Below the pieces are notes generated by a model. The model was not told the origin of the DNA, made no database searches, and was given only the letters and a program-made list of their open reading frames with translations. DNA of 64,000 nucleotides from a virus (lineage: Duplodnaviria; Caudoviricetes). A program made the position numbers and the translations under genes. This document shows, in pieces, positions 3,208-56,696 of this stretch (the stretch's first letter is position 1; every line of letters begins with the position of its first letter). Where the stretch lies: positions 64,001 to 128,000 of the IMG/VR virus record IMGVR_UViG_3300028533_000484. The stretch is one strand, 5' to 3'.

Positions 3208-3849
3208 TTAAGTATTTTCTAGAATTCTATTCTTTGGCATTTTTCTACTTGCAATAATTCTTGCAGTTGGATAAATCTCGTCATAAAGGCTATCCTCGAA
3301 TTCTGGTTTATCTAAATCATAATCATTCAATAATGGAAAAGACTTAATCAATCTTCTAACATTGTCAGGTATATCATCTCTGTACTCGAGTAAATATGCA
3401 AAGTTGCGAGCAATTCTTTCTGCTTGACCAGGTTTAGGTCGATCTAAACTATTTACCAAGCAATCTGCAGCTTTCACTAAAAGTGCAGAAGGACTTAACT
3501 CCAAAAGCTCTCGATTTATATATTCCTCTTTTCCTAACCTATCCACTTCAGGTTGAAAGTTTGTTACTTCCTCTACAATTTGGGCAACTGTTGGTCCGTA
3601 AATAGCTTCTAACTCTTCTGCAGTTGTATCTGTATCTTCCAAAGTATCGTGTAAAAGAGCTGCTTCTATTTCTGTAGCTGTTCCACCATAGGCAGCAACA
3701 ACTTCAGCTACCATTTCAGGATGCACGAAATATGGCTGACCAGATCCTCTACGAACCATTCCAGTATCATCGTGTTTACGTTTAGCAAAACTATAAGCAT
3801 ATTGTAATTGTGGATTTTCAATCATAGGGTTTTCAACTAATCTTTGCAT
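3208..3849 (-). CDS. HD-domain (p)ppGpp hydrolase-like protein (SpoT hydrolase / Mesh1 / SAH family)
   Basis: AxxxH...RRGSGQPYFVHP...AALLHDTLEDT...VEEVT...VKAAD...N motifs. Confidence 0.85.
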   Translation of the reverse strand: MQRLVENPMIENPQLQYAYSFAKRKHDDTGMVRRGSGQPYFVHPEMVAEVVAAYGGTATEIEAALLHDTLEDTDTTAEELEAIYGPTVAQIVEEVTNFQPEVDRLGKEEYINRELLELSPSALLVKAADCLVNSLDRPKPGQAERIARNFAYLLEYRDDIPDNVRRLIKSFPLLNDYDLDKPEFEDSLYDEIYPTARIIASRKMPKNRILENT

Positions 3850-3880: not shown

Positions 3881-4441
3881 ATGAAAATATTTTACATAAG
3901 ACACGCTCCAACTATGGCCAATCTAAACGGTGACATAGTTGAAGATTACGATGGACAAAGCATAGTTTTCTTTGATAAAGATAAATGGTACGAAAAAGTG
4001 GGGTCAAATCTTCCGAAAGATTTTAAGTTATTTATTTCACCTGCAAAAAGATGTAAAGAAACAGCTAAAGTTTTGTTCCCAGATAAAGAGTATACAGTCG
4101 TACAAGATCTTGCAGAGTTTGACTTAAGTGAGCTTAATAAGTCAGGCCAAAAGTTTTGGGAGATAGATGAAGAGACATTTAACAAGTATGTTTTCTTACC
4201 AGAACGCAGCATTATCAATCGCTGGTTGATTGCTCTCGAAAGTATGAAAAGCAAGTGCGACAGTAGTGACGACACAATCGTTGTAATTGGCCACGGATTT
4301 TACGGAAGACTTGTAAATGAAATATACCAAAACAATGATGACTCTGTTTTTGATATTCTTAATTCAAAAACCTTTTCTTTTGGAAATCTTGATATGATGG
4401 AAATTGAAAAGAGCCGAGTTCAGAAAGTTTACAGGATGTAA
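3881..4441 (+). CDS. histidine phosphatase (phosphoglycerate mutase-like) family protein
   Basis: IRHAPT, SPAKRCKET, LAEF, IGHG motifs. Confidence 0.85.
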   Translation: MKIFYIRHAPTMANLNGDIVEDYDGQSIVFFDKDKWYEKVGSNLPKDFKLFISPAKRCKETAKVLFPDKEYTVVQDLAEFDLSELNKSGQKFWEIDEETFNKYVFLPERSIINRWLIALESMKSKCDSSDDTIVVIGHGFYGRLVNEIYQNNDDSVFDILNSKTFSFGNLDMMEIEKSRVQKVYRM

Positions 4442-5871: not shown

Positions 5872-6723
5872 ATGTCGAAAGTTTTAGTAATTTCTGGTAC
5901 TCATGGAAATGAGACCAATGCTGTTCAGGATGTATACGACCTTGAATTAAGATATGAGGATCAAGACATTCGCGATGTTATATTTTATCAAGCTTGGAAT
6001 CTTACGGCTTTAGATGCAGGAACAAGAGAGTTTGTTAGTTACTCAAACGAACTTCCCGATGATCTGAATCGGGCTTTTCCAACAACACAAAATGTAGATA
6101 AGGAAGACTTGATATATGTTCTTAAAGGTATCATAGATAAGGTGGACATTATTATCGATGTTCACAATTCCGAACTCTTAAAAAATTGCGTTGTCATTAA
6201 TAACGATTCTAGAGCCCAAAATTATGTAAATTTCTGTAAAGAAAATGACATACCTTTTATTGTAATTGAATCAACTACGAACACAATTAAGAGATTTGCA
6301 CTTAACAACGATAAAATTGGTTTTACTGTTGAAATTGGAGATATGAATTTCTCTGATAGTACCGAAGGTGTTGACTTTTTAGATAAACTTATCAAAGCTT
6401 TGCGAGCAGCTGATTTAGAAACATTAAGACGCTCTGATCAGAATCCTCTTGATGCATCTCAAGTCGCAAAAACAATTTATGCACATTCTCGAGGTTTATT
6501 AAGAACTTTTAGGAACAATGAATACAGTAAAAAGCCAAAACGTTCAGAAGTTCTAAAACATTACTTAAAAGGTGAAAAAATCTTCATAATTGAAAATCCT
6601 ACAAAATCTACATGTCGTGGTGAAGAAATTGTTGCTCCTTGTGATGGTTATGTAATGGATATGGTTGACTCATACTGGGTTAATACTGGAGATGTTATTC
6701 TTAATTTCCAACCAGACTTATAA
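5872..6723 (+). CDS. succinylglutamate desuccinylase/aspartoacylase (M14 metallo-carboxypeptidase) family protein
   Basis: GTHGNE, DLNRAFP, IIDVH, TVEIG motifs. Confidence 0.85.
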   Translation: MSKVLVISGTHGNETNAVQDVYDLELRYEDQDIRDVIFYQAWNLTALDAGTREFVSYSNELPDDLNRAFPTTQNVDKEDLIYVLKGIIDKVDIIIDVHNSELLKNCVVINNDSRAQNYVNFCKENDIPFIVIESTTNTIKRFALNNDKIGFTVEIGDMNFSDSTEGVDFLDKLIKALRAADLETLRRSDQNPLDASQVAKTIYAHSRGLLRTFRNNEYSKKPKRSEVLKHYLKGEKIFIIENPTKSTCRGEEIVAPCDGYVMDMVDSYWVNTGDVILNFQPDL

Positions 6724-6954: not shown

Positions 6955-7545
6955 ATGAAACAGCTCTACATACGTAAAGGTAATTTAGAAGAAAATAGAA
7001 ACATTCTCATAATTGGGGAGGAAGCAGAGCTCGGTAGTAGAGATTCTGCTTATAAACCTAAAGGTACTTTGCATCAAAGAATGCCTAGAGATCCTTACAC
7101 TGGAGCTGAAAACCTTGCTTACATTCATGCTTGCAAAAACATTCTTTTGATCTCATCTCAATATAAAAACGATCATGCAGTACACGATTTTGTAAAACGT
7201 TTTTGTAAAGATCTAGTAGTTTGGGACGGTGAAAGTAATCAAGGTTTAACAAATTCAAGAGAAGCTTTCATCTGTAAAAGTAAAAATGTAGATAAGACTG
7301 TTAGAATCTTACGAAAAAGAATTCAAGCAGTTGTTAAACCAGAAAGCTTTAAACAGTTTTTACAGAAAATATACTACAGTCTTAAAGTAAAGAAAAAGAT
7401 AAAATCTAAACGAAAAGTACGTAACATAAAACTCTGGTTAGTGATAATTCTAATCACTGTTTTAAACTTTCATCCAGTCACAAAACCTTTTGTAAGAAAG
7501 GTAGAAACAATCATTTATAATACAATAGCAAAACTTTTTAATTAA
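6955..7545 (+). CDS. hypothetical protein, basic C-terminus with hydrophobic segment
   Basis: 196-aa ORF. Confidence 0.7.
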   Translation: MKQLYIRKGNLEENRNILIIGEEAELGSRDSAYKPKGTLHQRMPRDPYTGAENLAYIHACKNILLISSQYKNDHAVHDFVKRFCKDLVVWDGESNQGLTNSREAFICKSKNVDKTVRILRKRIQAVVKPESFKQFLQKIYYSLKVKKKIKSKRKVRNIKLWLVIILITVLNFHPVTKPFVRKVETIIYNTIAKLFN

Positions 7546-7613
7546 AAAGTCATTTTTTATCGAAACTCCTTAAAGGTGTCTACCTATAATATTGGTATAT
7601 ATAAGGAGATAAT

Positions 7614-9329
7614 ATGAAACTTAAGTCATTAAAATCTGTAGAATTAAAAGCTGTTGAAATTCCAAAACGAATTACTGTTCCGGATTTTGCAGATTCAAAT
7701 AAATTTTCAGACCGAGTATTCGGTGCTTTTTGTAGAATAAATCCAGATCTTCCTTGTATGCAGGATGAAACATTCCTTAAAAGAGTTTTTACAGTATTAA
7801 AAGCTGCTGGTGGAGATGATTATTTAGAAAAAGCTAAACAATGTAAACTCTCAGAACTTGTTAGTAAGGATCCTGAAATTAAGAAATGGCGTCAGTGGTA
7901 TGCAACCGAAAAGTTGCGATTAGCTGAATGGAGAAAAGCCAATAAAGAAGAAATTGCAAAACGTAAAGCAGAATTTAAAGATAAATACGGATATGCAATT
8001 GTAGATGGTGTAGAAGAACCACTACAAAGTTATGCAGTCGAGCCAGAAGGTTTCTTCTTCGGTCGAGGAGATTCACCAATCAGTGGTTACTGGAAATTCG
8101 AAAACACTGCAGCAGACCTTAGAATTAATTCAAATAGTAAAAATCTTCCAGTAGTCATCTATACAGGTGAAGATGAAGAAAAATTAATTACAGATAATTT
8201 CCCTTGGAAAGTAACTTGGGATCCAGATTCACATTTTGCTGCACAATATGATATTAAAATAGGTATTCCAAATTCTGATGGAACAATTAAAACAATTAAA
8301 GCCGAAAAGTATAAAATGATTCAATTCGGGGCTACATCTTCAGTGAAAAAGGAAGGTCAGTCGAAGAAGTATGCTGCAGCTTCTGAGCTTGGAAAATCTT
8401 ATGAAAAAATTATTGAAAATGTGAAAAAGGAATTTCAAAAAGCAAGAAGCAGTAACAAAATTGCAGATTTAAGTACAGCGATTGCAGTATTTATGCTTTT
8501 TGAAAAAGGTATTCGTATTGGATCTGCTAAACCAACTGTCAACGGTACAAAAGGTCTTCTTTCTCTAGAATGGGGAAAAGATGTTAAGAGAGATGGTAAT
8601 AAAATAAAATTTAATTTTTATGGAAAAGATTCTGTAAAAGATACAAGTTCGATCGAAACTGAATATGCTGATGTAATTGAAAAAGGTTGGAGTAAATATA
8701 CAAAACTTTTTACAGATAAAGCTTCTATTAAAGAGTATATTGGAAAACTTGCACCTTCTGTAAGCGATGTATTTTCACCTAAACTTTGTCGTACGGCAGT
8801 TGCTGCTTCAGTAATGTTAAAAGCTCTTGACGAAGTTGTTGATAAGTACAAACTTACAAAAGAATCGCCAGAAGCTCTTAAAAAACTTGCATTTGATGAA
8901 GCAAATATGGCTGTTGCAAGACGCTTAAATCATCAACGCGGTGTAAACAAAGTTGCAGAAGCAAAACGTAATGAAGCAAATAAACTTAAAGAAGAAGCAA
9001 TTAAAGCAAGAGTTATTAAAGTAAAAGAAATGAATGCAAAGAAACAGGAAAGAATTAAGGCTCTTAAAGCAGCTAAAAAAGATGGTTGGAAAGAAAAGGT
9101 TGCAAAAATTCAAGAACAAATGCTAAAAGCAGATGAAAGACTTGCACAAAGTAAACGTAATTTGAAGTTCAAAGAAGAAAACGGAAACATTACAGCTTCT
9201 ACTTCGAAGGCTGCTTATATTGATCCTTCGATTGTTGCAGATTTCTGTACAAGAGTAGATTTGAAGCTTGAAAAAGTTTATACAAAGAGCCAGATAGAAC
9301 AGTTCAGTCAGTTCTTTGGTGAAGATTAA
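7614..9329 (+). CDS. DNA topoisomerase IB, long eukaryote-like form
   Basis: Catalytic pentad in order: GIRIG (R), GKDS (K), KLCRT (R), NHQR (H), TSKAAYIDP (Y); EPEGFFFGRGDSP motif; Lys/Glu-rich linker before the Tyr. Confidence 0.9.
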   Translation: MKLKSLKSVELKAVEIPKRITVPDFADSNKFSDRVFGAFCRINPDLPCMQDETFLKRVFTVLKAAGGDDYLEKAKQCKLSELVSKDPEIKKWRQWYATEKLRLAEWRKANKEEIAKRKAEFKDKYGYAIVDGVEEPLQSYAVEPEGFFFGRGDSPISGYWKFENTAADLRINSNSKNLPVVIYTGEDEEKLITDNFPWKVTWDPDSHFAAQYDIKIGIPNSDGTIKTIKAEKYKMIQFGATSSVKKEGQSKKYAAASELGKSYEKIIENVKKEFQKARSSNKIADLSTAIAVFMLFEKGIRIGSAKPTVNGTKGLLSLEWGKDVKRDGNKIKFNFYGKDSVKDTSSIETEYADVIEKGWSKYTKLFTDKASIKEYIGKLAPSVSDVFSPKLCRTAVAASVMLKALDEVVDKYKLTKESPEALKKLAFDEANMAVARRLNHQRGVNKVAEAKRNEANKLKEEAIKARVIKVKEMNAKKQERIKALKAAKKDGWKEKVAKIQEQMLKADERLAQSKRNLKFKEENGNITASTSKAAYIDPSIVADFCTRVDLKLEKVYTKSQIEQFSQFFGED

Positions 9330-19549: not shown

Positions 19550-21877
19550 ATGAAGCGTTTTGACCAACAGGGAATCCTAGAAAGACAAATTAATGTATTA
19601 AAATCCAAAAACAATTGGTCCAATTTACAAGCGGACGGTGCTACGTATCAACTGTTAGAAGCTTTCGTAGAGCCTATTGCGGAAGTAGCTAGATATGGTG
19701 AATATCTTTTACAAGAGTTAAAATGGGACACATCTAGAAACTTTAGCTCTACAAAACATATGGCCAGATTGGTTGGAAAGAAACTTGAAAGAAAGCATTC
19801 AGCAACAGGTTCTATTATTGTCAGTCATTCTGATGTAGATGGAATTGCTAGATATTCTTTTCTAGGTATTGACAATTTTAATATCGATTCGGAAAGTAAT
19901 TACGATAATTTAACACTAGATTCAGAGTTAACAGAAACTTGTTATACTCACTCTTTGGTGCCTTGGACAAGTACTAGTAGTTATGTAGTTAAAAAAGGCT
20001 CAACTTTTGTTACAAAAGATGGTAGAAACTTTATTTGTGCTGAAAGTAAAAGTATTCAACCTTGTACAGTTGACTGGGATACAGTTCGTAGCAGTGCTTC
20101 AAGTCTTTTAGCTTTTAAGGCTACTGATGGTTGGAACAATTACAAGTATCTTACTGTACCTGTTGTACAAGGTTTTCAGAAAAAAGTAAACTTAGGTATT
20201 TCAAATGGTAGAGCTAGTCAATCTTTTATTGTTGCTACATTGGATATTGAAGCTGCAGATAACTTGTATACAAAACAATTTTGTTATATTGAGGTAACGG
20301 ATGCAGCTGGTAAAACAGAAACCTGGACAGAGATTCAACACTTACAGTTAGCAACTGCTACAGATAAAGTGTTTGAAATAGACATTTTGGACGATTTATC
20401 TGGTACAGTTGTCAAATTTGGTGACTCTTGTAGCGGTGCTATTCCACCAGAGAATTCTAAAATTGTTTTCCATTATTTGGAAACATTAGGGGCAGAAGGT
20501 AATGTTACCGATTTGTATGCTTTCCAAAACGAGATTGATGGTGTTGAAATGCCAAAAGATAGCAACTACAGAAACTTGACAGTTGGTTGTCAAAACATGT
20601 GGCCAATTATTGGCGGTAAAGATCTCGAAACATTATCAGAATATAAAGCAAATGCAGAAATTGCCTATGCTAAGAATTATGAAATTCTTCATACATATCC
20701 AGAGTTAGAAGCAGCTATTAATAGTATTTCTCCAATTCCTTTGATTAAGGTAAAAACAAGTACATTCTACGAAACTGAAACAATTAATTCGACAAAAGTT
20801 GTTTTACCGAAAATTGGACTTACAGGTTTATCTACTGGTGTTAAGCCTTTAAACTCTACTGAAGCTCTTCTTTTTGAGAGTATTCTTAACTCTAAACTAA
20901 ACTCAAAAGTTTTGTCAAATAAGTTTATTCGTTACTTAGCACCAGCTATTATTGAAATAAACTCTTCAATTCAGATCGAGCCAAGTACATCAATTGCTTC
21001 TAAAGAGGAATTCAAGGAAGAAATTGAGACATACTTAAATACACACTACGGTAAAACAAATATTAATCCAATTGACTGCTATAAGCAAGCTGATTTGTTA
21101 AGAGGTGCCCTTACATGTTCAAGCAACATTGGGTCTATATTGTCCACAAGTATGCTTACAATTTCAACTTCAGATGTAGTTTACGGTATTTTCGGTAACT
21201 CAATGGAGAAGTACTTCTTATTTACATTCACATTTCCAACCTTATCTACAGATACTTCTAGTGTAGAAGGTTTCTGTGATAGATCTTTGGCAGATGGTAA
21301 CGAAACACCATATGTATTTAATATTAATATAAATGGTAATTCGCATACATACGTTGTTCGAGAAACAAAGTCAGAAGAATCTGAAAAACTTCTTTTTGAA
21401 CAGGATGATTATTTTTCAGACTTAAATGCAGTGTATCTTTACAAAAACCTGAATACAGAGAACTCTAGATATGTTTTGAAACACTTAAGATTACCAAAAT
21501 ATACATTCTCGAAAAAAGATTTACAGAGCTTCCAAAGTTTAGCTACAGATGTAAACGAACCTTTTGCAACAGCAGATGATTTCAAAGGTATCTATTTTTA
21601 TGTAAAAAGATCAAAAGATTCTCCTACATTCTATTTAGCATTAAGTGCCCAGGAAGTTGCAAAATGTTTAGGATTTAAGACAGAAGTATCCGACGATAAC
21701 ATTTCTAGTATTTACAACAACCTTTTAGGTTCTATAGATAATGATTCCACAAAAATCACTGTTGCATTTGAACCTGCGGATAAGACAGTTGCAGGACCTT
21801 GGAATACAGTAATCTATTACGATCACATCGATGTTGACATAGAGAATACACTTAATACCTCAATTGCAAGTTCTTAA
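19550..21877 (+). CDS. baseplate wedge protein (T4 gp6-like)
   Basis: VPVVQG, VKFGD..GAIP...YLETLGAEGN, GGKDLET motifs. Confidence 0.75.
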   Translation: MKRFDQQGILERQINVLKSKNNWSNLQADGATYQLLEAFVEPIAEVARYGEYLLQELKWDTSRNFSSTKHMARLVGKKLERKHSATGSIIVSHSDVDGIARYSFLGIDNFNIDSESNYDNLTLDSELTETCYTHSLVPWTSTSSYVVKKGSTFVTKDGRNFICAESKSIQPCTVDWDTVRSSASSLLAFKATDGWNNYKYLTVPVVQGFQKKVNLGISNGRASQSFIVATLDIEAADNLYTKQFCYIEVTDAAGKTETWTEIQHLQLATATDKVFEIDILDDLSGTVVKFGDSCSGAIPPENSKIVFHYLETLGAEGNVTDLYAFQNEIDGVEMPKDSNYRNLTVGCQNMWPIIGGKDLETLSEYKANAEIAYAKNYEILHTYPELEAAINSISPIPLIKVKTSTFYETETINSTKVVLPKIGLTGLSTGVKPLNSTEALLFESILNSKLNSKVLSNKFIRYLAPAIIEINSSIQIEPSTSIASKEEFKEEIETYLNTHYGKTNINPIDCYKQADLLRGALTCSSNIGSILSTSMLTISTSDVVYGIFGNSMEKYFLFTFTFPTLSTDTSSVEGFCDRSLADGNETPYVFNININGNSHTYVVRETKSEESEKLLFEQDDYFSDLNAVYLYKNLNTENSRYVLKHLRLPKYTFSKKDLQSFQSLATDVNEPFATADDFKGIYFYVKRSKDSPTFYLALSAQEVAKCLGFKTEVSDDNISSIYNNLLGSIDNDSTKITVAFEPADKTVAGPWNTVIYYDHIDVDIENTLNTSIASS

Positions 21878-28357: not shown

Positions 28358-28429
28358 GCATCTATAGCTTAATGGATAAAGCTTCTACCTCCTAAGTAGA
28401 GGATGCAGGTTCGATTCCTACTAGGTGCT
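28358..28429 (+). tRNA. tRNA-Arg(CCT)
   Basis: Cloverleaf; TCTAC-CTCCTAA-GTAGA. Confidence 0.9.
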
Positions 28430-28530
28430 AAAGGTTGGCAGTCAAACCTTTAAGACTCCATTTTTTCTTCTGGAAATATTTTGATTTATTTTCAGAAGAA
28501 AATTAAACTTATAACAAGTGAGGTACAGAA

Positions 28531-28692
28531 TTGGAAAGATTGGAAAGAATTGTAGATTGGCTTTTCGATACACATGATAAGGTTTTGTTTGTTGAAGATA
28601 TTAGTGGTTTTGGAGCTCTATTTCTTTTTGGAACTATGATTTTTGTTGCTGTGTTGTGTTGCAGCAAAAAGCTCAGAAGCAAGTTCTTTTAG
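28531..28692 (+). CDS. small membrane protein (53 aa, not in ORF track)
   Basis: GAGGT RBS, TTG start, hydrophobic segment. Confidence 0.5.
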   Translation: MERLERIVDWLFDTHDKVLFVEDISGFGALFLFGTMIFVAVLCCSKKLRSKFF

Positions 28693-28750
28693 GTGAATTT
28701 TTCAGATTGCACTAACTATATTACAAGCATAAATTGAAGGAGTAGATATC

Positions 28751-28861
28751 ATGACAAAGACATTTGTAACATCTAATAACATGACAAGTTCTTATCAATG
28801 CTGTGATACTATCCAATATTCATATTGTTCGTCAATCTATTTTAGAGGTGACAACAGTTGA
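28751..28861 (+). CDS. leader peptide 1 (36 aa) MTKTFVTSNNMTSSYQCCDTIQYSYCSSIYFRGDNS
   Basis: Promoter motif 28695-28722, GAAGGAG RBS, stop overlaps antiterminator arm. Confidence 0.75.
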   Translation: MTKTFVTSNNMTSSYQCCDTIQYSYCSSIYFRGDNS

Positions 28862-28923
28862 CCTTGTGCAAATAAAAAATGTTTGAAGAGTTGCACAGGG
28901 TTCCTAGAAATAGGAACTTTTTT
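28860..28923 (+). promoter_or_regulatory. attenuator 1: antiterminator (28860-28871/28891-28902) competing with terminator (28897-28923)
   Basis: GACCTTGTGCAA pairs TTGCACAGGGTT; AGGGTTCCTA-GAAA-TAGGAACTTT-TTT. Confidence 0.75.
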
Positions 28924-28940
28924 ATTCTTCAAACAAGTTT

Positions 28941-29021
28941 GGGTCAGTCGAGCAATTGGTTGCTCAGCGGACTGTAAATCCGTGGCCTATGGCATTGGGG
29001 GTTCGAATCCCTCCTGGCCCA
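28941..29021 (+). tRNA. tRNA-Tyr(GTA)
   Basis: Cloverleaf with variable arm; GCGGA-CTGTAAA-TCCGT. Confidence 0.92.
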
Positions 29022-29116
29022 ATATCACATTAAATCAACCAGTTTGTGAAAAGAGTTAATTTTTTTAACTATAATTAAATTATTAGCACTAATTAATTAA
29101 AGAAGGAGAAAAGATT

Positions 29117-29260
29117 ATGAAAAATTTTGTAACAAAACATTCGAACATAATTACAAAACAGATGTGTCAATCTGCTCTCCATACACTTTGCAATATTTTT
29201 GCTGACTCTGATTTTCAAACTAATGGGAAAGTGAAATGCGAAGGAGACTTCAAGTCTTGA
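29117..29260 (+). CDS. leader peptide 2 (47 aa) MKNFVTKHSNIITKQMCQSALHTLCNIFADSDFQTNGKVKCEGDFKS
   Basis: Promoter motif 29048-29075, GAAGGAG RBS, last codons and stop form antiterminator arm. Confidence 0.75.
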   Translation: MKNFVTKHSNIITKQMCQSALHTLCNIFADSDFQTNGKVKCEGDFKS

Positions 29261-29321
29261 GATAATTAATAATTTAGTTATTTACAAGGCTTGAATCGAA
29301 AAGGTTCAAGCCTTTTATTTT
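29249..29321 (+). promoter_or_regulatory. attenuator 2: antiterminator (29249-29295) competing with terminator (29286-29321)
   Basis: TTCAAGTCTTG pairs CAAGGCTTGAA; AAGGCTTGAATC-GAAAA-GGTTCAAGCCTT-TTATTTT. Confidence 0.8.
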
Positions 29322-29325
29322 GCTT

Positions 29326-29398
29326 AGGATGTTAGTACACCGGTTTAGTATTTTAGTCTGATAAACTAAAGAAAGAAGTTCAACTCTTCTACATCCTA
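29326..29398 (+). tRNA. tRNA-Ile(GAT)
   Basis: AGGATGT/ACATCCT acceptor; TTAGT-CTGATAA-ACTAA. Confidence 0.85.
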
Positions 29399-29402
29399 TA
29401 TA

Positions 29403-29629
29403 GTTAAACAAAAGCGTCGATTAAAACTGGTTCGAGTAATTGAGGTAACGTTCAGTAAATGAAAGAACAAAGATAATAACGGACTGAGGTAGAAACATTG
29501 TCAATCTTGGGTGTCCTGCCCGTCAGAAGAGTAATACTCTTCTTCAAGAATAAGGTGACGGATTGATGGTGTTGAAGGTTGGCTGGAGACGGCAGCGATA
29601 AATCCAGTTGAGTTTGACTTATTTTTAAC
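29403..29629 (+). ncRNA. candidate structured ncRNA (~225 nt)
   Basis: Ends pair (AACTGG/CCAGTT, GTTAAA/TTTAAC); inner CCGTCA/TGACGG and GAAGAG/CTCTTC. Confidence 0.45.
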
Positions 29630-29696
29630 ATTTTTTATGAAACAGCAATTAGCTTTTCAACTATAATATATATGTTAAAAATATTAAATTATTTAT

Positions 29697-29770
29697 AGTT
29701 CCATAGAACAACAGGTCCAGTTCACGGCCCTTTCAAGGCTGAGATCCGAGTTCAAGTCTCGGTGGAACTA
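29697..29770 (+). tRNA. tRNA-Glu(TTC)
   Basis: CGGCC-CTTTCAA-GGCTG; own promoter motif at 29639-29667. Confidence 0.9.
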
Positions 29771-29970
29771 AAGCTTATGTTCCTAACGGTTCGACTCCGT
29801 ATGAAAATCTTGAACTGTATAAGTGCGGTATAAGCCCGATGAGATGTCAAGATATAAACGGCATAGGAAAGGAAGCATCTGACTTAAGGTTTCAGGATAC
29901 AGTAGTAAACCTAGCGAAGTAGCGAAGGCCAAGTGAAAAGCGAACTCTTGCAAGAATCCCTTATAATGGG

Positions 29971-30051
29971 TGAAAGTTATAGTATAATGGAAATACAACA
30001 GCCGAGGTTATCTGGGCTGGAGATTGAAGGTTCGAGTCCTTCTGACTTTCA
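29971..30051 (+). ncRNA. tRNA-like RNA with aberrant anticodon arm
   Basis: Acceptor, D and T arms intact; CAGCC-GAGGTTATCTG-GGCTG (11-nt loop). Confidence 0.7.
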
Positions 30052-30056
30052 TATTT

Positions 30057-30130
30057 GCATCAGTAGCTCAGTTGGTTAGAGCGCCTGCCTTCCAAGCAGG
30101 ATGTCGAGGGTTCGAGCCCCTTCTGGTGCT
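30057..30130 (+). tRNA. tRNA-Gly(TCC)
   Basis: CCTGC-CTTCCAA-GCAGG. Confidence 0.95.
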
Positions 30131-30132
30131 CT

Positions 30133-30298
30133 AGGTGCAGCAATGCCGTGGATAGCACGTTACTAGGACTAATCTAATTGTACAAAGGAATTAGCCAGAG
30201 GATATGGTAACATACCTCGTTCTACGACTAGGTTGTTAAGGATGTTATACCTGACGTGAGACAGCCATAAAGGTTTCGTTTAGAAGATTGCTGCACCT
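30133..30298 (+). ncRNA. candidate structured ncRNA (166 nt)
   Basis: Perfect 12-bp closing stem AGGTGCAGCAAT/ATTGCTGCACCT with internal hairpins. Confidence 0.55.
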
Positions 30299-30373
30299 TT
30301 AAGCAGGTTGAAACGAATAGAAACTGAATCGAAAGATTCTAATGTAGGAGTAAGCACAAGAAGCTTATTGCAT

Positions 30374-30446
30374 GGGATATTGGTAAAATGGTGCATACGC
30401 CTGACTGTCACTCAGGAGAGCGCGAGTTCAATTCTCGCATATCCCG
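30374..30446 (+). tRNA. tRNA-Asp(GTC)
   Basis: CCTGA-CTGTCAC-TCAGG. Confidence 0.9.
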
Positions 30447-30455
30447 TTTTTTCTT

Positions 30456-30551
30456 GGACTGGTCGTATAGAGGTCAATTACAGGAGGAATGCGGTCCATT
30501 GGACCAAAGCCTCCTGCCATAGCTACGTAGGTTCGAATCCTACCCAGTCCG
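30456..30551 (+). ncRNA. tRNA-like RNA with hairpin inserted in the anticodon loop
   Basis: GGACTGG/CCAGTCC acceptor, perfect T arm; GGAGG-AATGC-GGTCC-ATT-GGACC-AAAG-CCTCC. Confidence 0.7.
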
Positions 30552-30560
30552 TAATGCATT

Positions 30561-30634
30561 GGAGTGTTAGCTCAGTTGGTAGTAGCAAGCGGCTGTTAAC
30601 CGCTAGGTCGCAGGTTCGAGTCCTGCACACTCCG
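30561..30634 (+). tRNA. tRNA-Asn(GTT)
   Basis: AGCGG-CTGTTAA-CCGCT. Confidence 0.95.
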
Positions 30635-30642
30635 AAAACCTT

Positions 30643-30710
30643 AACATCTTACCTTTATGGTCCTAGGGCTGTAATGTTAGGTGGGGACCACCGGAGATGT
30701 TCCTAACATT
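30643..30710 (+). ncRNA. compact pseudoknotted element
   Basis: AACATCTT/GAGATGTT, TGGTCCT/GGGACCA, loop AATGTTAGG pairs CCTAACATT. Confidence 0.55.
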
Positions 30711-30717
30711 GTTTTAT

Positions 30718-30790
30718 GCTACCTTAGCAAAATGGCTAATGCGCGTGATTTGTAATCTCGAGATTGTGGGTTCGAGTCCTACAGGTAGCT
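30718..30790 (+). tRNA. tRNA-Thr(TGT)
   Basis: CGTGA-TTTGTAA-TCTCG (one stem mismatch). Confidence 0.88.
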
Positions 30791-30792
30791 TT

Positions 30793-30865
30793 CGCGGATG
30801 GGTGAAACGGAATTCATGCCAGCCTCATAAGCTGAAGATAGCAGGTTCGACTCCTGTATCCGCAA
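30793..30865 (+). tRNA. tRNA-Met(CAT), initiator-like (C1:A72)
   Basis: CGCGGAT/ATCCGCA; CCAGC-CTCATAA-GCTGA. Confidence 0.85.
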
Positions 30866-30867
30866 TA

Positions 30868-30995
30868 AAAACATTTAGCGGTTTGTGAAAGTGGAAGGCA
30901 TTCCTTTGGACGACATGAAAGTCATAGCAAATCATAATCGAAACTGGTAAGCCTTAGCGCTGAGTACACTTACCGTTGAGTAGGCTAAATGTTTT
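30868..30995 (+). ncRNA. candidate structured ncRNA (128 nt)
   Basis: Perfect 12-bp closing stem AAAACATTTAGC/GCTAAATGTTTT; inner GGTAAG/CTTACC. Confidence 0.5.
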
Positions 30996-30999
30996 ACAT

Positions 31000-31071
31000 C
31001 GCCTGTTACCCAAGCAGTAAGGGAGCGGTCTGCAAAACCGTAATTCATAGGTGCAAATCCTATACAGGTGT
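31000..31071 (+). tRNA. tRNA-Cys(GCA)
   Basis: GCGGT-CTGCAAA-ACCGT, U73. Confidence 0.9.
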
Positions 31072-31075
31072 CTAA

Positions 31076-31231
31076 GGAATGGTAGCTTAGTCAAAAATAG
31101 TTTAGAAACTGCGCTGGCCGGTCGGCGGTTATAAATACTGAATTATTCAGTGTTAGGAAGCCTAAATGAAATATGCAGGAAAAGCGCTAACGAAACGTTA
31201 GAGAGTGTAAGTTCGAATCTTACCTATTCCT
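31076..31231 (+). ncRNA. tRNA-like RNA with ~90-nt D-loop insertion and collapsed anticodon loop
   Basis: GGAATGG/CTATTCC, GCTT/AAGC, CTAACG-AAA-CGTTAG, GTAAG-TTCGAAT-CTTAC. Confidence 0.65.
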
Positions 31232-31298
31232 TGAGGTAGATATAGGTGTTCGGTGCAAGTCCGGATTTAAGATAGTCAAGCCTTAAGCTACCATAAAA

Positions 31299-31505
31299 GT
31301 GGAGACTTCTGTGACTATACAGAAAACTATAGCAACATCTCAGCCAAGTGTTAATAATTGCTCTTTAGATAGTAAAATCGAAAGAGCTTATATGAAAGGC
31401 GCGCTTGCAATGTATGAGTTTTTGCAAGAAGAAAAATTAGTGCCTATTATAACAACTGGGTGTCAAGAAATGTTATGGAAAAAGTTTAAGGAAAAGAATA
31501 GCTAA
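31299..31505 (+). CDS. small hypothetical protein
   Basis: ORF between RNA genes; start uncertain. Confidence 0.5.
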   Translation: METSVTIQKTIATSQPSVNNCSLDSKIERAYMKGALAMYEFLQEEKLVPIITTGCQEMLWKKFKEKNS

Positions 31506-31566
31506 TTCGCATGCTTTCTTGATATATTGGATTACAGGTCTATGAAAATGACTTGTTTTTTTACAT

Positions 31567-31638
31567 TCCTCCATAGTGTAGTTGGTAGCACTTGAGAATT
31601 TGGGTCTCACAGGCTGGGTTCGAGTCCTAGCGGAGGAA
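31567..31638 (+). tRNA. tRNA-Gln(TTG)
   Basis: TGAGA-ATTTGGG-TCTCA. Confidence 0.88.
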
Positions 31639-31640
31639 AT

Positions 31641-31701
31641 AAAGCAAAGGTTGTTCCTATTAAAAGTTATTTTATTGGAAAAATTGTGTACAACCCGCTT
31701 T
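31641..31701 (+). repeat. GTTGTTCCTATT...TACAAC motif copy 1
   Basis: Conserved with 34987-35062 and 35394-35470. Confidence 0.7.
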
Positions 31702-31707
31702 AATTTT

Positions 31708-31780
31708 GGGCTGTTCGTATATCGGCTTATTACACGGGCTTTGCAAGCCTGATAGAGGGGTTCAACTCCCCTACGGTCCA
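31708..31780 (+). tRNA. tRNA-Ala(TGC)
   Basis: G3:U70 pair; CGGGC-TTTGCAA-GCCTG. Confidence 0.92.
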
Positions 31781-31810
31781 CTAAAAAAGTCTTCTGTTAG
31801 AAGATTTTAT

Positions 31811-31892
31811 GGGTTTGTGTTGGAATTGGTATACATCGGGGTCTTAGAAGCCTCGGCCGAAAGGATTGAGAGTTCGAGTCTCTCCAAGCCCA
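31811..31892 (+). tRNA. tRNA-Leu(TAG)
   Basis: GGGGT-CTTAGAA-GCCTC, variable arm. Confidence 0.9.
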
Positions 31893-31896
31893 TCAT

Positions 31897-31968
31897 CCAA
31901 ACTTGGTGTCAGCGGTAGCACAGCGGACTGAAGATCCGTTAGCTGGGGTTCAAATCCCTGAGTTTGGA
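31897..31968 (+). tRNA. tRNA-Phe(GAA)
   Basis: GCGGA-CTGAAGA-TCCGT. Confidence 0.85.
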
Positions 31969-31975
31969 CTAATAT

Positions 31976-32048: not shown

Positions 32049-32050
32049 AT

Positions 32051-32123: not shown

Positions 32124-32130
32124 TTTATTT

Positions 32131-33240: not shown

Positions 33241-33244
33241 ACAA

Positions 33245-52497: not shown

Positions 52498-54396
52498 TTA
52501 CGTGATATTGATATGGAATTCTCTTCCTCTTAAAAAGTTTTTCCTTTCATCTGTATCAAAACCAAACCAATTTTGAATTGACTTTTTATAATTTTTATCA
52601 GCATCGTAAGGCATTAGAAGTTTCTCCATTCCACCTTCTTTATCTAAAACTTGATTAAGTCTAACCTTAGTCCAAGAACCTAAACCTTTTAAGTAAAAAT
52701 AATCTAAATTCTTTTTCATATCTTTTTTGTCTGGAAAGTTAAAATAGTACTCTTCTACTTTTTCTCCTTTAAGACCAATTAATAATGGAGTATTTAATCT
52801 ACAGACTCTTCCGTTTTCAATCATTTTTGGAGCAAGTTTTGCAAACATTGTAAGTACCAAACCTGCAATTGCTGTACCATCGGGGTCCGCGTCGGATAAA
52901 ACAACAACATAGTCGTAAGTCATATCTTCTGTTTTACCATATAGATCTAAGCCTAGAATATTTACAAGCTCTTTGATTTCTTGGTTTTCCATAAAACCTT
53001 TTACTTTACCTTTTCTTACAGGACCTACATCTTGAATGTTCATCGGTTTACCTTGCAACATGTAGTACCCAATTCCTTTACGACCTAGAATAGGACTAAT
53101 ACCAGAGAAAGCAGATCTACCTTCAGTAATCATTAGATACTTTTGACCTGATTTTGCTACAGGTGCAAAATATTTCTCACTTACGACTTCTTTCTTTACT
53201 TTGTTGAGAGCATCTGTTGCTTTACGAGCTGCCAATTCCTCTTTTAATTTAAAAAGCTCTGTAATATTTTCAATAATCGGTTTTGTACGAAGAATTTTAT
53301 CTGTAAAAGTATCCAGATCAACATTATTTGCTCTTAAGAATTCTGTAATTTCTCCTTGAGAATTTGTAATTTTTTCTTTTGTCTGGGAATTAAATTTACA
53401 GTTTGTAAAATCTTTCAGAAAAACAACTATACCAATACGATTGCGAATGTCTGCAGGTTTGATTGCTTTGTATTTTTTAGATACTTTCTCACGAATATCA
53501 TTTATAACTTTTGCTGAGATGTAATCAACATGTGTACCACCTTCGCGAAGTGAAATACCGTTTACATAACTCAGTACATAGGGTTCATCACTAGGATATA
53601 CACAAATATAGCAATTAGGCTCGTTGAGTACTACGGCTGGTTGAGGAAACATTGAAGCAAGATCTTTTGCTTTTACTCCGACCTTTTCTCCATTAAAAGT
53701 AATTGTACATTTAGGAAAGAACCAGGAAAGGAATTTCAAACGAGTCTTAATAAGAGATATAATGTTTTCATCAAACTCTTTTACACCAAATCTAGCAAAA
53801 TCTGGAGTAAATGTTATTGTTGTTCCTTTTTTTGGTGATGCAGTTAAAAGTTTAAAGTCCATTTTAGATCTATTATCTTCGCAATTGATCTTCATCTTTG
53901 CATTACCATCGCAAGTAATACATTCAAACTTTTTAGAGAAAATGTTCGCGCCCTTACATCCGATACCGTTGGTCCCGATAGTCTTTCTGTTTGCATCATC
54001 TTCAAAGTTGGAACCTGACATTGGTCTACAGACAGCATCTACACACATCCAGTTTCCTTCATCATCTTGAACAACTGGAATACCTCGACCATTGTCTTCG
54101 CAAGAAAATGTATCTTTTGTAATAGTAACTTTAATTTTATTTGAAAAAGCCCAATCTGTTTTTACACCTTCGTCAATTGAGTTGTCGACAACCTCGTTAC
54201 AGATTTTCAATAAACCTTCTGTAAAGTTAACTTCTTTGTAAGAGATCTGTCCATCTTCCTCTAAGATCCAAGAGTTAATATTAGCAGGAGAAACTCCACC
54301 TATGTACATTGAAGGCCGTCTAAGTACATGTTCAATAGTAGATAAATGTTTAATTATTTGATTGCTTTCTAATTTTTTTGTTTTATTATCTTTCAT
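52498..54396 (-). CDS. type IIA DNA topoisomerase ATPase/TOPRIM subunit (T4 gp39+60-like)
   Basis: RRPSMYIG, EVVDNSIDE, DNGRGIP, GTNGIG, TEGRSA, DADPDG, YLKGLGS. Confidence 0.95.
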   Translation of the reverse strand: MKDNKTKKLESNQIIKHLSTIEHVLRRPSMYIGGVSPANINSWILEEDGQISYKEVNFTEGLLKICNEVVDNSIDEGVKTDWAFSNKIKVTITKDTFSCEDNGRGIPVVQDDEGNWMCVDAVCRPMSGSNFEDDANRKTIGTNGIGCKGANIFSKKFECITCDGNAKMKINCEDNRSKMDFKLLTASPKKGTTITFTPDFARFGVKEFDENIISLIKTRLKFLSWFFPKCTITFNGEKVGVKAKDLASMFPQPAVVLNEPNCYICVYPSDEPYVLSYVNGISLREGGTHVDYISAKVINDIREKVSKKYKAIKPADIRNRIGIVVFLKDFTNCKFNSQTKEKITNSQGEITEFLRANNVDLDTFTDKILRTKPIIENITELFKLKEELAARKATDALNKVKKEVVSEKYFAPVAKSGQKYLMITEGRSAFSGISPILGRKGIGYYMLQGKPMNIQDVGPVRKGKVKGFMENQEIKELVNILGLDLYGKTEDMTYDYVVVLSDADPDGTAIAGLVLTMFAKLAPKMIENGRVCRLNTPLLIGLKGEKVEEYYFNFPDKKDMKKNLDYFYLKGLGSWTKVRLNQVLDKEGGMEKLLMPYDADKNYKKSIQNWFGFDTDERKNFLRGREFHINIT

Positions 54397-55328: not shown

Positions 55329-56696
55329 TTAAAGATCCGTAGATTTTTTTGCAACAGTTTTTATAAAGCCTTCTTTTTTAAGTTCTGTTTCAAGTTCGTT
55401 CAAGTCTTTTGTCCAAGCACTTTCTGGAGTTTCCTGTTCCATTGCTTCACGTTCTTTTGTCTTGTCTTTCCACTTCTTTTCAATTTCTTTTGCTTTATCT
55501 ATTGTAATGGAATATAAAGGCATCGAAAGAAGTTTATCTACAATTGTGTAACCTTTTTGTTTAAGATCTGCTTCTGCAACTGCTTTTTTCTTATCTTTTA
55601 AAACTATTGTACCTTTAATAACTTCCTGAATAAATCTGTAGACTTCGTTTAATTCACTCTCTTCTTTTTTCAATCTTGCAATTTCAGATTTAATACGTAA
55701 CTTAAGATATTTAATCTTAATTTTGTAGTAATCATTAAAGACGGATCTTACTTCGTTATATTCACGAACTGTATTATTTTCATCCATACAAGTTACAGTT
55801 TCTGTCATTCTTTGAATCAAGCCAAGATCTTTCCAGATTTGATCTTCTGATTTTACCAATTCTGTATCCGAAAGCCAAATTTCGAATTTAAAAACATCAT
55901 CTTCACTAAAATCGTTGAATTTTAGTACAAGGCCATCCTCTTTAAGACTGCGAAGCTTTTTCAAATAGCCACTTAAATCCCAAGTTATTGGAAGTTCGTC
56001 AATATAAAGTTTCTTACCTTCAAGTCTAGCAATACCCTTAACAATCCAAGAGCCATCAACATTGTCAATTGTGCCTTTAAAACCTTCCCAATGTGGTTTT
56101 AGCCAATCGGATTTAATGTTCTTTCCTGCAATTGCTGCTCTTGTAAGCTTGAAAATATTTTCAAGAGAGCGAGGATAAATATCTGAAGAAAATCCTACAC
56201 CAATTCCTTCTGTACCATTGAGTAATATTAATGGTAAAGTCGGTACATAAAACATTGGTTCAATTTGCTTACCTTCGAACTCTTGATAAATAAGATTTGG
56301 ATCATCTTCTTTTCTAAAAAGTAAATTAAAATAATCTGCCGGTCTTGCAAAAATATAACGAGGTGCAGAAGCTGTTGGTGAGAACCTAGTACCAAAAGAT
56401 CCAACTCCTTCTAAAGGTGGTAAATTGTTTGCACCACAATATTTTGCAGACATTGTTACAATTGTACTTTGAGCACCAGATTCACCATGTAAGTATTCTG
56501 CTTCATCTACAAGTTTGGAACTGTAAGCTGTAACTTTAATTGGGTTTTTAATTCCACATTTTTTCGTAGTATAGACTACCTTTCTTGCAGTCATCTTCAA
56601 CCCGTCAATGTAAGATGCTGTTGCTCTATACAAAATGTATAGAGCAGCGTCATTGTACTGTGTATTTAAAAATTCTGTAATATCCATCTTTTTCAA
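55329..56696 (-). CDS. type IIA DNA topoisomerase breakage-reunion subunit (T4 gp52-like)
   Basis: IDGLK..RK, YLHGE, GSFGTR, SAPRY, LLNGTEGIGVGF. Confidence 0.95.
   Translation of the reverse strand: MKKMDITEFLNTQYNDAALYILYRATASYIDGLKMTARKVVYTTKKCGIKNPIKVTAYSSKLVDEAEYLHGESGAQSTIVTMSAKYCGANNLPPLEGVGSFGTRFSPTASAPRYIFARPADYFNLLFRKEDDPNLIYQEFEGKQIEPMFYVPTLPLILLNGTEGIGVGFSSDIYPRSLENIFKLTRAAIAGKNIKSDWLKPHWEGFKGTIDNVDGSWIVKGIARLEGKKLYIDELPITWDLSGYLKKLRSLKEDGLVLKFNDFSEDDVFKFEIWLSDTELVKSEDQIWKDLGLIQRMTETVTCMDENNTVREYNEVRSVFNDYYKIKIKYLKLRIKSEIARLKKEESELNEVYRFIQEVIKGTIVLKDKKKAVAEADLKQKGYTIVDKLLSMPLYSITIDKAKEIEKKWKDKTKEREAMEQETPESAWTKDLNELETELKKEGFIKTVAKKSTDL

What the first reader, a model, noticed from the sequence alone, without database searches (positions are those of the whole stretch)
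7614..9329. Long eukaryote/thaumarchaeal-type topoisomerase IB in a bacteriophage
Seen: 571 aa with the R-K-R-H-Y pentad, the YGY..VDG...EPEGFFFGRG cap motif, NHQR and a ~90-aa charged linker before TSKAAYIDP. Established: bacterial and poxviral Topo IB are short and lack this cap motif and linker, while eukaryotic Top1 has EPPGLFRGRG, NHQR and TSKLNYLDP. The genome also encodes a type IIA enzyme. Relevant to Topo IB origins.
Basis: partly seen in the sequence, partly recalled or inferred. Interest (0 to 1): 0.7.

Follow-up and report, generated by a model that had tools for sequence, protein, structure and literature searches.

The report
Human-type topoisomerase IB in giant phage
A roughly 400-kb gut bacteriophage encodes a complete, apparently active copy of the long DNA-untwisting enzyme topoisomerase IB, described so far from eukaryotes, their giant viruses and some archaea; it belongs to a large phage-borne branch that bears on where the eukaryotic enzyme came from.

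Summary
ORF 7614..9329 (+) encodes a 571-aa protein with all three eukaryotic Top1 Pfam domains and an invariant R301-K338-R393-H440-Y535 pentad. It has an 87-residue charged coiled-coil linker. A confident AlphaFold model superposes end to end on human Topo70-DNA complexes (TM 0.76-0.77).

The carrier is a tailed phage of a bacterium. It is a 140-kb fragment of a roughly 400-kb genome with a baseplate gene, a T4-type split topo II, GroEL, 27 tRNAs and Shine-Dalgarno sites.

The enzyme is not a recent capture. About 55 close clusters and at least 50 clusters at 50% identity form a phage-type radiation outside a strongly supported Archaea+Eukarya+giant-virus clade (100/99). They are also distinct from the Motura/phiRSL1-type TopIB already known in jumbo phages. 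Three distantly related phage genomes carry it with core-gene-like divergence.

The root is unresolved. AU tests do not reject phage monophyly, so no claim of a phage origin for the cellular enzyme is made.

I found no paper describing long TopIB in phages and no copy in 50,697 deposited phage genomes. This scan has already noted the same thing in at least 21 other genomes.

Verdict: a real new member of a known family, of moderately high interest. Activity is untested.

The parts
7603..7608 (+). Shine-Dalgarno site AAGGAG, 5-nt spacer to the ATG
   Evidence: Sequence read. 54% of the contig's ORFs have an SD-like 4-mer upstream, against a 12% background.
7614..9329 (+). Long-form topoisomerase IB gene (571 aa plus stop)
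7614..8333 (+). N-terminal and cap region (residues 1-240). PF02919 matches residues 87-202. Holds the EPEGFFFGRG motif (143-152) with invariant R151.
   Evidence: PF02919 50.8 bits; invariant G150 R151; whole-chain superposition on human Topo70.
8337..9029 (+). Catalytic core (PF01028, residues 242-472) with R301 (8514-8516), K338 (8625-8627), R393 (8790-8792) and H440 (8931-8933)
8949..9182 (+). Linker: two long antiparallel helices, residues 446-487 and 492-523, lysine-rich
   Evidence: AlphaFold2 secondary structure, pLDDT mostly 85-93; composition; His-to-Tyr spacing 95.
9132..9305 (+). C-terminal domain (PF14370, residues 507-564) with the active-site Tyr535 (9216-9218) in the motif TSKAAYIDP
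52498..54396 (-). Context: T4-type topoisomerase II large subunit (GHKL ATPase + GyrB + Toprim)
55329..56696 (-). Context: T4 gp52-type topoisomerase II subunit (GyrA/ParC fold)
   Evidence: PF00521, E 9e-67; best hits are topo II of large Vibrio and Aeromonas myoviruses, 31-38% identity.
19550..21877 (+). Context: baseplate wedge-like protein (hallmark of a contractile-tailed phage)
   Evidence: phrog_219, E 2e-12. Its G001 homologue passes the Pfam Baseplate_J cut-off.

Best explanation
The gene encodes an active long-form type IB topoisomerase of a huge tailed bacteriophage. Inferred mechanism, by homology with human TOP1: the cap lobe (residues ~1-240) and the catalytic lobe (242-442 plus the C-terminal domain) close as a clamp around duplex DNA. 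Tyr535 attacks one strand and forms a 3'-phosphotyrosyl intermediate, with R301, K338, R393 and H440 stabilising the transition state. The downstream duplex swivels, braked by the lysine-rich coiled-coil linker (446-523), and the nick is resealed. This needs no ATP or Mg2+ and relaxes both positive and negative supercoils. In the phage it would act as the replication and transcription swivel for a roughly 400-kb genome, alongside the ATP-dependent T4-type topo II, which decatenates. That would make the phage independent of host gyrase and topo IV for removing positive supercoils. Shown here: sequence, domains, catalytic residues, predicted fold, phage context, family distribution and tree position. 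Inferred: catalysis, substrate range and role in infection. The gene is an old, mostly vertically inherited component of a lineage of huge phages, not a recent capture from a eukaryote or archaeon.
For: Architecture and fold: three Pfam domains over their cut-offs. Human Top1 is the best PDB sequence hit. AF2 model pLDDT 89.4, pTM 0.79. Foldseek TM 0.76-0.77 over about 600 columns to 1RRJ, 1K4T and 1A36.
Active site: the pentad is invariant in the family and in all 97 long forms compared.
Selection: about 55 clusters at 43-100% identity are all full length.
Phage identity: IMG/VR virus record, 35% complete; 27 tRNAs; baseplate wedge; T4-type split topo II nearest to large myoviruses; homing endonuclease and transposase; group I GroEL; SD sites; a core protein that the ESM Atlas places in Uroviricota clusters.
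Lineage: G000, G001 (240 kb) and G002 (133 kb) share 15-34 proteins at 24-42% identity. Their TopIBs differ by a similar amount (27-28%). G001 has Baseplate_J, DnaB, SbcC and NrdD.
Tree: window clade 100/100; Archaea+Eukarya+GVMAG clade 100/99 with no phage sequence in it; long forms versus the Motura type 100/99.
Synteny with the giant-protein gene is kept in L087. The gene is present in RNA-library assemblies of animal gut samples.
Against: No biochemical data exist. Evidence for transcription is weak: Logan contigs from RNA libraries may contain carried-over DNA. No terminase, capsid, portal or sheath gene was recognised on this 35% fragment. PF02919 matches only the distal half of its profile, so the first ~86 residues are divergent. 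The residue before the catalytic Tyr is Ala or Ser, not the Asn seen in eukaryotes. The host is not identified; the only lead is a related contig binned into a Treponema MAG.
Confidence: 0.8

Rival explanations
1. The contig is not a bacteriophage but a giant virus of eukaryotes or a large archaeal virus. In that case a long TopIB would be unremarkable, because giant-virus MAGs commonly carry one and tailed archaeal viruses can take their host's.
For: Long TopIB is common in GVMAG contigs. One 121-kb tailed virus (L027/G004, Terminase_6N) carries a TopIB nested in the Bathyarchaeia clade. No capsid or terminase was recognised on G000.
Against: Baseplate wedge protein. Split T4-type topo II nearest to myoviruses of Vibrio and Aeromonas. 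Bacterial group I GroEL. Strong SD usage. The TopIB lies outside both the GVMAG and the archaeal clades. Flanks of related loci share genes with the phage genomes and none, beyond TopIB, with giant-virus or archaeal flanks, whereas true giant-virus loci share 13-14. A related contig was binned with a Treponema MAG.
Confidence: 0.07
2. The gene is a recent horizontal acquisition from a eukaryote, archaeon or giant virus living in the same gut, an accessory gene without deep history in phages.
For: Identity to cellular forms is low but uniform (23-28%). Gut samples contain protists and archaea.
Against: The window clade plus its sisters form deep, well-supported phage-side groups (100/100). All sampled archaeal, eukaryotic and GVMAG sequences lie on the other side of a 100/99 branch. 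Three distantly related phage genomes carry it, with divergence equal to that of their shared core genes. At least 50 clusters at 50% identity lie in neither the archaeal nor the eukaryote/giant-virus clade.
Confidence: 0.04
3. The protein has the TopIB fold but serves another DNA-breaking and rejoining role, for example site-specific cleavage or processing of genome ends, or a virion-packaged factor for early transcription as in poxviruses, rather than general supercoil relaxation.
For: TopIBs, tyrosine recombinases and telomere resolvases share their chemistry. The gene lies within 3-10 kb of virion genes in G000, L087 and G002. The phage already has a type II enzyme. Poxvirus TopIB is sequence-specific and packaged in the virion (established knowledge).
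Against: The whole-chain match is to the DNA-encircling clamp of TOP1, including cap and linker. Recombinases score only E 0.07-0.1. No inverted repeats or end sequences are linked to the gene. Packaging or site-specificity would add to relaxation rather than replace it.
Confidence: 0.08
4. Assembly or binning artefact: a eukaryotic or archaeal gene was wrongly joined into a phage contig.
For: The record is a metagenome assembly.
Against: GC is uniform (31-34%) across the region. There is a phage-style SD. The same gene order is found in an independent assembly (L087). Contigs from four other runs bridge the gene and its neighbours. The identical protein occurs on a second contig of 180 kb.
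Confidence: 0.01

Closest known systems
Human/eukaryotic nuclear topoisomerase I (TOP1, Topo70 form; PDB 1A36, 1K4T, 1RRJ)
   Same: Same domain order (cap, core, coiled-coil linker, C-terminal Tyr domain). Same catalytic pentad. Near-identical His-to-Tyr spacing (95 vs 91). Whole-chain fold match, TM 0.76-0.77.
   Different: Only about 22% identity. It lacks the long, variable N-terminal extension of eukaryotes (about 142 vs a median of about 400 residues before the EPxG motif). It has Ala/Ser instead of Asn before the catalytic Tyr, a position where a human substitution is tied to camptothecin resistance (title of 1RRJ). It is encoded by a bacteriophage and lies in a separate clade.
Archaeal TOP1 of Nitrososphaeria/Bathyarchaeia/Aigarchaeota (CsTOP1, PDB 6Z01; Brochier-Armanet 2008 PMC2621148; Takahashi 2022 PMC8748870)
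   Same: Same size class (about 540-600 aa), same Pfam domains, no eukaryotic N-terminal tail.
   Different: 25-28% identity. [quoted passage not shown] Most archaeal enzymes are reported to have shortened linker helices (PMC8748870), while the phage linker is full length.
Long TopIB of giant-virus MAGs (GVMAG contigs in IMG/VR)
   Same: Viral, long-form, same domains.
   Different: The GVMAG enzymes group with eukaryotes (99/94) and have a shorter median His-to-Tyr spacing (69). The carriers are giant viruses of eukaryotes, not tailed phages.
'Phage-specific' topoisomerase I of Motura, phiRSL1, Lu11, PaBG and Rhizobium jumbo phages (Iyer et al. 2021, PMC7824862)
   Same: Encoded by jumbo phages; shares the PF01028 catalytic core.
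   Different: The Motura enzyme (541 aa) has only PF01028 at residues 290-500. It has no PF02919 or PF14370, an unrelated N-terminal 290 residues, and about 40 residues after the catalytic His, so no linker. It is separated from all long forms at 100/99.
Short bacterial and poxviral TopIB (Deinococcus 2F4Q/3M4A; variola 2H7F)
   Same: Same chemistry and catalytic-domain fold.
   Different: About 310 aa, with no cap domain of the TOP1 type and no linker. Foldseek aligns only about 240 columns, at E about 5e-5 to 1e-4.

Membership tests
Long-form topoisomerase IB (TOP1 of eukaryotes and archaea) | N-terminal DNA-binding (cap) domain, Pfam PF02919 | tested here: met
   50.8 bits against a cut-off of 25, residues 87-202, but only profile positions 84-200 of 213. 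The rest of the cap is supported by the whole-chain fold match.
Long-form topoisomerase IB (TOP1 of eukaryotes and archaea) | Catalytic core PF01028 with the Arg-Lys-Arg-His tetrad | tested here: met
   77.1 bits against 23.7. R301, K338, R393 and H440 are invariant and align with the human catalytic residues.
Long-form topoisomerase IB (TOP1 of eukaryotes and archaea) | C-terminal domain (PF14370) carrying the nucleophilic Tyr in an SKxxY(I/L)DP motif | tested here: met
   48 bits against 25.1. TSKAAYIDP, with Y535 invariant.
Long-form topoisomerase IB (TOP1 of eukaryotes and archaea) | Antiparallel coiled-coil linker between the core and the C-terminal domain | tested here: met
   AF2 helices 446-487 and 492-523. 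His-to-Tyr spacing 92-95 in the clade, against 91 in human. 44% charged residues.
Long-form topoisomerase IB (TOP1 of eukaryotes and archaea) | Bilobed clamp fold that encircles duplex DNA | tested here: met
   Foldseek TM 0.76-0.77, E about 1e-24, about 600 columns to human Topo70-DNA complexes. This is a predicted model, not a solved structure.
Long-form topoisomerase IB (TOP1 of eukaryotes and archaea) | ATP- and Mg-independent relaxation of positive and negative supercoils through a 3'-phosphotyrosyl intermediate | not testable with these tools
   Needs purified protein.
Long-form topoisomerase IB (TOP1 of eukaryotes and archaea) | Groups with long forms rather than short-linker forms in a phylogeny | tested here: met
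   Long forms versus the Motura-type outgroup at 100/99.
Eukaryotic nuclear TOP1 in the strict sense | Long, variable N-terminal extension; membership of the eukaryotic clade; Asn before the catalytic Tyr | tested here: not met
   No extension. Outside the Eukarya+GVMAG clade. Ala at that position.
Short bacterial/poxviral TopIB | About 310-340 aa, small N-terminal domain, no linker | tested here: not met
   571 aa. Only about 240 columns align to variola and Deinococcus structures.
Motura/phiRSL1-type phage-specific TopIB | PF01028 core only, unrelated N-terminal region, Tyr about 25-30 residues after the catalytic His | tested here: not met
   tblastn of the window protein finds none of these phages.
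Tyrosine recombinase / telomere resolvase | Recombinase-type N-terminal domains and best fold match to integrases or resolvases | tested here: not met
   Integrase and XerH matches only at E 0.07-0.1 and TM below 0.2.

The most novel reading that the evidence does not exclude
Long-form topoisomerase IB first diversified in huge tailed phages, and the enzyme of archaea, eukaryotes and giant viruses descends from one phage lineage. On this reading the root of the long-form tree lies inside the phage radiation, as in the outgroup-rooted trees, where phage branches such as L195 and P0074/L193/L194 sit next to the cellular clade. This would parallel the proposed viral origin of eukaryotic Topo IIA (PMC9752973). 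It would also undercut the inference that TopIB was present in the common ancestor of Archaea and Eukarya (PMC2621148).
Probability: 0.2. Interest if true: 0.85.

Novelty: new member of a known kind. Interest (0 to 1): 0.62.

Why it matters
Long TopIB has been treated as a signature of eukaryotes and of Bathy-, Aig- and Thaumarchaeota, and has been used to argue about the archaeal root and the DNA genome of the archaeal-eukaryal ancestor (PMC2621148, PMC12395588). A large, deeply diverged, phage-borne branch of the same architecture adds a third major group to that tree. It is either the sister of all cellular and giant-virus enzymes or the stock from which they arose, so any rooting or origin argument now has to include it. 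It also shows that bacteria-infecting viruses can carry a swivelase type that bacteria themselves lack in this form. That raises a testable question about how roughly 400-kb phage genomes handle positive supercoils. Finally, it offers compact, naturally N-terminally truncated TOP1 homologues for structural work, drug-sensitivity studies and single-molecule experiments.

Tried and rejected
The contexts of the 425-kb and 429-kb contigs that carry P0020 and P0256 could therefore not be read.
- A single-protein scan of viral contigs found nothing. The alignment scan found only distant relatives.
- PHROGs has no family for the protein, and most large ORFs of the contig have no PHROG or Pfam hit.
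- Pfam Terminase_6N, Phage_sheath_1 and Capsid_NCLDV were not found in G000, G001 or G002. This is uninformative: the genomes are fragments, and the NCLDV capsid search rang in no control.
- A profile of the lineage's most conserved core protein found nothing in the PDB.
- Promoter-like and terminator-like sites around the gene do not exceed shuffled expectation.
- The AU test under the mixture model stalled on one CPU, and a 75-row mixture tree was killed. LG+G4 was used instead.
- A first count by MRCA on a FastTree tree failed because the rough tree does not unite archaea with eukaryotes. The count was redone per clade.
- The genome search could not reach the metagenome records of L193, L195 and L213.
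- No supplementary files were held for the Jug-phage paper.
- True bacterial and poxviral short TopIB sequences could not be obtained for the tree, and plasmids gave no hit.
- I considered and rejected an alternative genetic code: ORF lengths do not improve when TAG or TGA is read as sense.
Full report
**1. The observation**

The window holds an ATG-initiated ORF at 7614..9329 (+) of 571 aa. A canonical Shine-Dalgarno AAGGAG sits at 7603-7608. The stretch between NHQR (439-442) and TSKAAYIDP (530-538) is 87 residues and 44% charged. Three Pfam families pass their curated cut-offs: PF02919 (cap, partial), PF01028 (core) and PF14370 (C-terminal domain). PHROGs has no family for the protein.

**2. 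What the protein is**

phmmer against PDB sequences puts human Top1 first (E 3e-22, residues 102-565). Next come Caldiarchaeum CsTOP1 (6Z01, E 8e-16) and Leishmania Top1.

An alignment of 16 family members has R301, K338, R393, H440 and Y535 invariant. By the alignment and the established numbering of human TOP1, these are R488, K532, R590, H632 and Y723. The same five positions are conserved in all 97 long-form sequences I compared.

An AlphaFold2 model built on that alignment is confident (pLDDT 89.4, pTM 0.79). It shows two long helices, 446-487 and 492-523, which is the form of the TOP1 coiled-coil linker. Foldseek aligns about 600 columns to the closed human Topo70-DNA complexes at TM 0.76-0.77 (E about 1e-24). 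Variola and Deinococcus short enzymes cover only about 240 columns (E about 5e-5 to 1e-4), and recombinases are marginal.

The His-to-Tyr spacing is 92-95 in the window's clade, against 91 in human. The residue before the catalytic Tyr is Ala or Ser in the clade but Asn in eukaryotes and giant viruses. A human substitution at that position underlies camptothecin resistance (entry title of 1RRJ). I therefore infer low camptothecin sensitivity.

**3. What carries it**

The window is bases 64001-128000 of a 140,446-bp IMG/VR virus record that CheckV rates 35% complete, implying a genome of roughly 400 kb. The evidence that it is a tailed phage of a bacterium is as follows:

- It has 27 tRNA genes in the window and about 81% coding density from ORFs of 100 aa or more under the standard code.
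- It has a baseplate wedge-like protein.
- It has a split T4-type topoisomerase II whose gp52-like subunit is nearest to large Vibrio and Aeromonas myoviruses.
- It has an HNH homing endonuclease and an IS-type transposase, a ClpP-like protease and a group I (bacterial-type) GroEL.
- SD-like motifs precede 54% of ORFs, against a 12% background.
- No terminase, capsid, portal or sheath was recognised on this fragment.

Two other IMG/VR records that carry distant TopIBs are G001 (240 kb, locus L064) and G002 (133 kb, locus L008). They share 19 and 15 proteins with this contig at 24-42% identity, including the 1,670-aa giant protein, the baseplate protein and GroEL. G001 has Baseplate_J over the Pfam cut-off, plus DnaB, SbcC and an anaerobic ribonucleotide reductase. 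The lineage's most conserved core protein falls in ESM-Atlas clusters that are about 96% viral, mostly Uroviricota.

A 65-kb contig binned into a Treponema MAG (L087) has the same GC content (0.328). It carries a 52%-identical TopIB followed by the giant-protein homologue at 51% identity, in the same order as here. It is a fragment of a related phage and the only host lead.

The DNA occurs in animal gut and faecal metagenomes of several studies. It also occurs in assemblies of metatranscriptomic libraries, where one 9.4-kb contig spans the gene at about 96% identity. This is a weak hint of expression, because DNA carry-over cannot be excluded.

**4. Distribution and phylogeny**

The word-indexed search found about 55 clusters (90% identity level) at 43-100% identity. 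All are about 546-585 aa except one truncated form, and some lie on contigs of 180-425 kb. The exhaustive search found 742 representatives with E up to 1e-3. None of the close ones carries a name.

Collection scans gave three results:

- Long TopIBs at 23-28% identity are common in giant-virus MAGs.
- They are also common in Nitrososphaeria and Bathyarchaeia, with a few in other archaea and in two bacterial MAGs.
- Hundreds more lie in metagenomes.

A 97-sequence tree and a careful 63-sequence tree rooted on Motura-type enzymes (IQ-TREE, LG+C20 PMSF, ultrafast bootstrap / SH-aLRT) agree on the following:

| Split | Support |
|---|---|
| Long forms vs Motura type | 100/99 |
| Archaea + Eukarya + GVMAG as one clade, with no phage sequence inside | 100/99 |
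| Archaea | 100/100 |
| Eukarya + GVMAG | 99/94 |
| Window clade | 100/100 |
| Window clade inside a 13-sequence group | 100/100 |

All the unnamed proteins of about 490-590 aa lie outside the cellular/giant-virus clade.

Eight sequences have a genomic context I could verify as phage-like: G000, L087, G001, G002, L193, L194, L195 and L198. They fall on several separate deep branches of that radiation. As a control, giant-virus-like loci share 13-14 flank genes with GVMAG flanks and only TopIB with the phage genomes. The phage-context loci show the reverse pattern.

On a rough FastTree of 313 sequences, the 141 full-length representatives divide as 13 with archaea, 78 with eukaryotes and giant viruses, and 50 in neither clade.

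The TopIB divergence among G000, G001 and G002 (27-28%) matches that of their shared core genes. This fits long vertical inheritance.

**5. What the trees do not show**

With the Motura-type outgroup, the root falls inside the phage radiation and the cellular clade appears nested. However, the outgroup fills under half of the columns and the program warns that long branches meet. AU tests under LG+G4 do not reject phage monophyly: p = 0.35 with 63 rows and p = 0.53 with 75 rows. In the 75-row test the constrained tree was marginally better.

The robust statement is that the phage enzymes form one or more deep groups outside every sampled archaeal, eukaryotic and giant-virus group. Whether they are sister to the cellular enzyme or ancestral to it is open.

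**6. Comparison with what is known**

The literature I could search defines the long form by PF02919 plus PF01028. It places the long form in eukaryotes and in Bathy-, Aig- and Thaumarchaeota, with a few Asgard archaea (PMC2621148, PMC8748870, PMC12395588).

Jumbo phages are known to carry a 'phage-specific' topoisomerase I (PMC7824862). I found it in 21 deposited genomes. In Motura it is a PF01028-only protein with no cap, no linker and no PF14370.

Searches of 50,697 deposited phage genomes found no long form. I used the window protein and two distant phage-type representatives. 72,556 plasmids gave nothing. Seven full-text searches found no paper reporting a long TopIB in a phage. The Jug-phage paper on 360-402-kb T4-like gut phages lists topoisomerase IV, but no TopIB, among the core genes in its main text.

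There are caveats. The tools may withhold records near the window's genome, subscription journals are not searched, and one family member is in NCBI as a contig of a bacterial MAG.

**7. Earlier notes of this scan**

The same kind of finding has been noted before in at least 21 other genomes, with the same reading. Some notes report TopIB genes split by homing-endonuclease cassettes. I saw 281-282-aa members beside 547-aa members in the P0058 cluster, which fits those notes. In this window the gene is intact. Unlike some of those phages, this one also has a type II topoisomerase. These notes were leads only. Everything scored here rests on my own calls.

**8. Verdict**

This is a real, intact long-form TopIB that is very probably active, encoded by a huge tailed phage of an animal-gut bacterium. 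It is a member of a large phage-type branch of the TOP1 family that I could not find described. It is a new member of a known kind. Interest is moderately high because it adds a major, unexpected group to a tree used in arguments about the origin of eukaryotic and archaeal DNA topology enzymes. Enzymatic activity, the host and the root remain to be shown.

Noticed in passing
Outside the window: L004:9450-13788 (genome G000:C1:49450-53788): A gene that is one 756-aa ORF in G001 (L170:3327-5594, -) appears in G000 as two ORFs (493 aa and 369 aa, 42% identity each). They flank a 567-aa HNH homing-endonuclease ORF on the opposite strand. It is the most conserved large core protein of the lineage. 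It has no Pfam, PHROG or PDB match, and the ESM Atlas places it in Uroviricota clusters carrying PF27249.
   Followed up: partly
L027 / G004 (IMG/VR record of 121,517 bp, 92% complete): A tailed virus (Terminase_6N hit) whose long TopIB sits inside the Bathyarchaeia clade. It is probably an archaeal tailed virus carrying a host-type TopIB, acquired independently of the phage radiation described here.
   Followed up: partly
L138 (Chloroflexota MAG), L139 (Acidobacteriota MAG): Two bacterial MAGs hold archaeal-clade long TopIBs. L138 groups next to a Thorarchaeota sequence and L139 inside Bathyarchaeia. This is either horizontal transfer or mis-binning.
   Followed up: no
window 37534-38106 (+); L203, L205, L210, L224, L238: This ORF is a thymidine kinase (PF00265, E 6e-28). 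In several very low-GC, giant-virus-like metagenome loci, a thymidine kinase homologue lies directly upstream of the TopIB gene.
   Followed up: partly
P0229, P0236-P0238 (cluster of P0058); P0063-P0071, P0087: Half-length (281-282 aa) and shorter TopIB products occur beside full-length ones in sister clusters. This fits earlier notes of this scan about TopIB genes split by endonuclease cassettes.
   Followed up: no
window 6955-7545 (+): The 196-aa ORF directly upstream of TopIB is the best-conserved protein between G000 and G001 (61% identity over 174 aa) and has no Pfam family. In G001 it is not next to TopIB.
   Followed up: no
window 5872-6723 (+), 3208-3849 (-), 3881-4441 (+): The neighbours upstream are an AstE/AspA-type (succinylglutamate desuccinylase/aspartoacylase) catalytic domain protein, an HD-domain protein and a weak histidine-phosphatase match.
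   Followed up: no
L003:10028-11431 (G000:C1:30028-31431) and L198:1409-2818: An IS-type transposase (phrog_506) of G000 is 85% identical to an ORF next to the TopIB of the otherwise distant phage locus L198. This suggests a mobile element moving among these phages.
   Followed up: no
L195 (388,268-bp metagenome contig): Its TopIB is nearer to archaeal sequences (38.6% to L088) than to G001's (32%), and it is sister to the whole cellular/giant-virus clade in the LG+G4 tree. Its flanks, however, share three genes with G001/G002 and none with archaeal or giant-virus flanks.
   Followed up: partly
window 28358-35368: An array of 27 tRNA genes, with raised GC (0.38-0.43) against the 0.32-0.34 background.
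   Followed up: no
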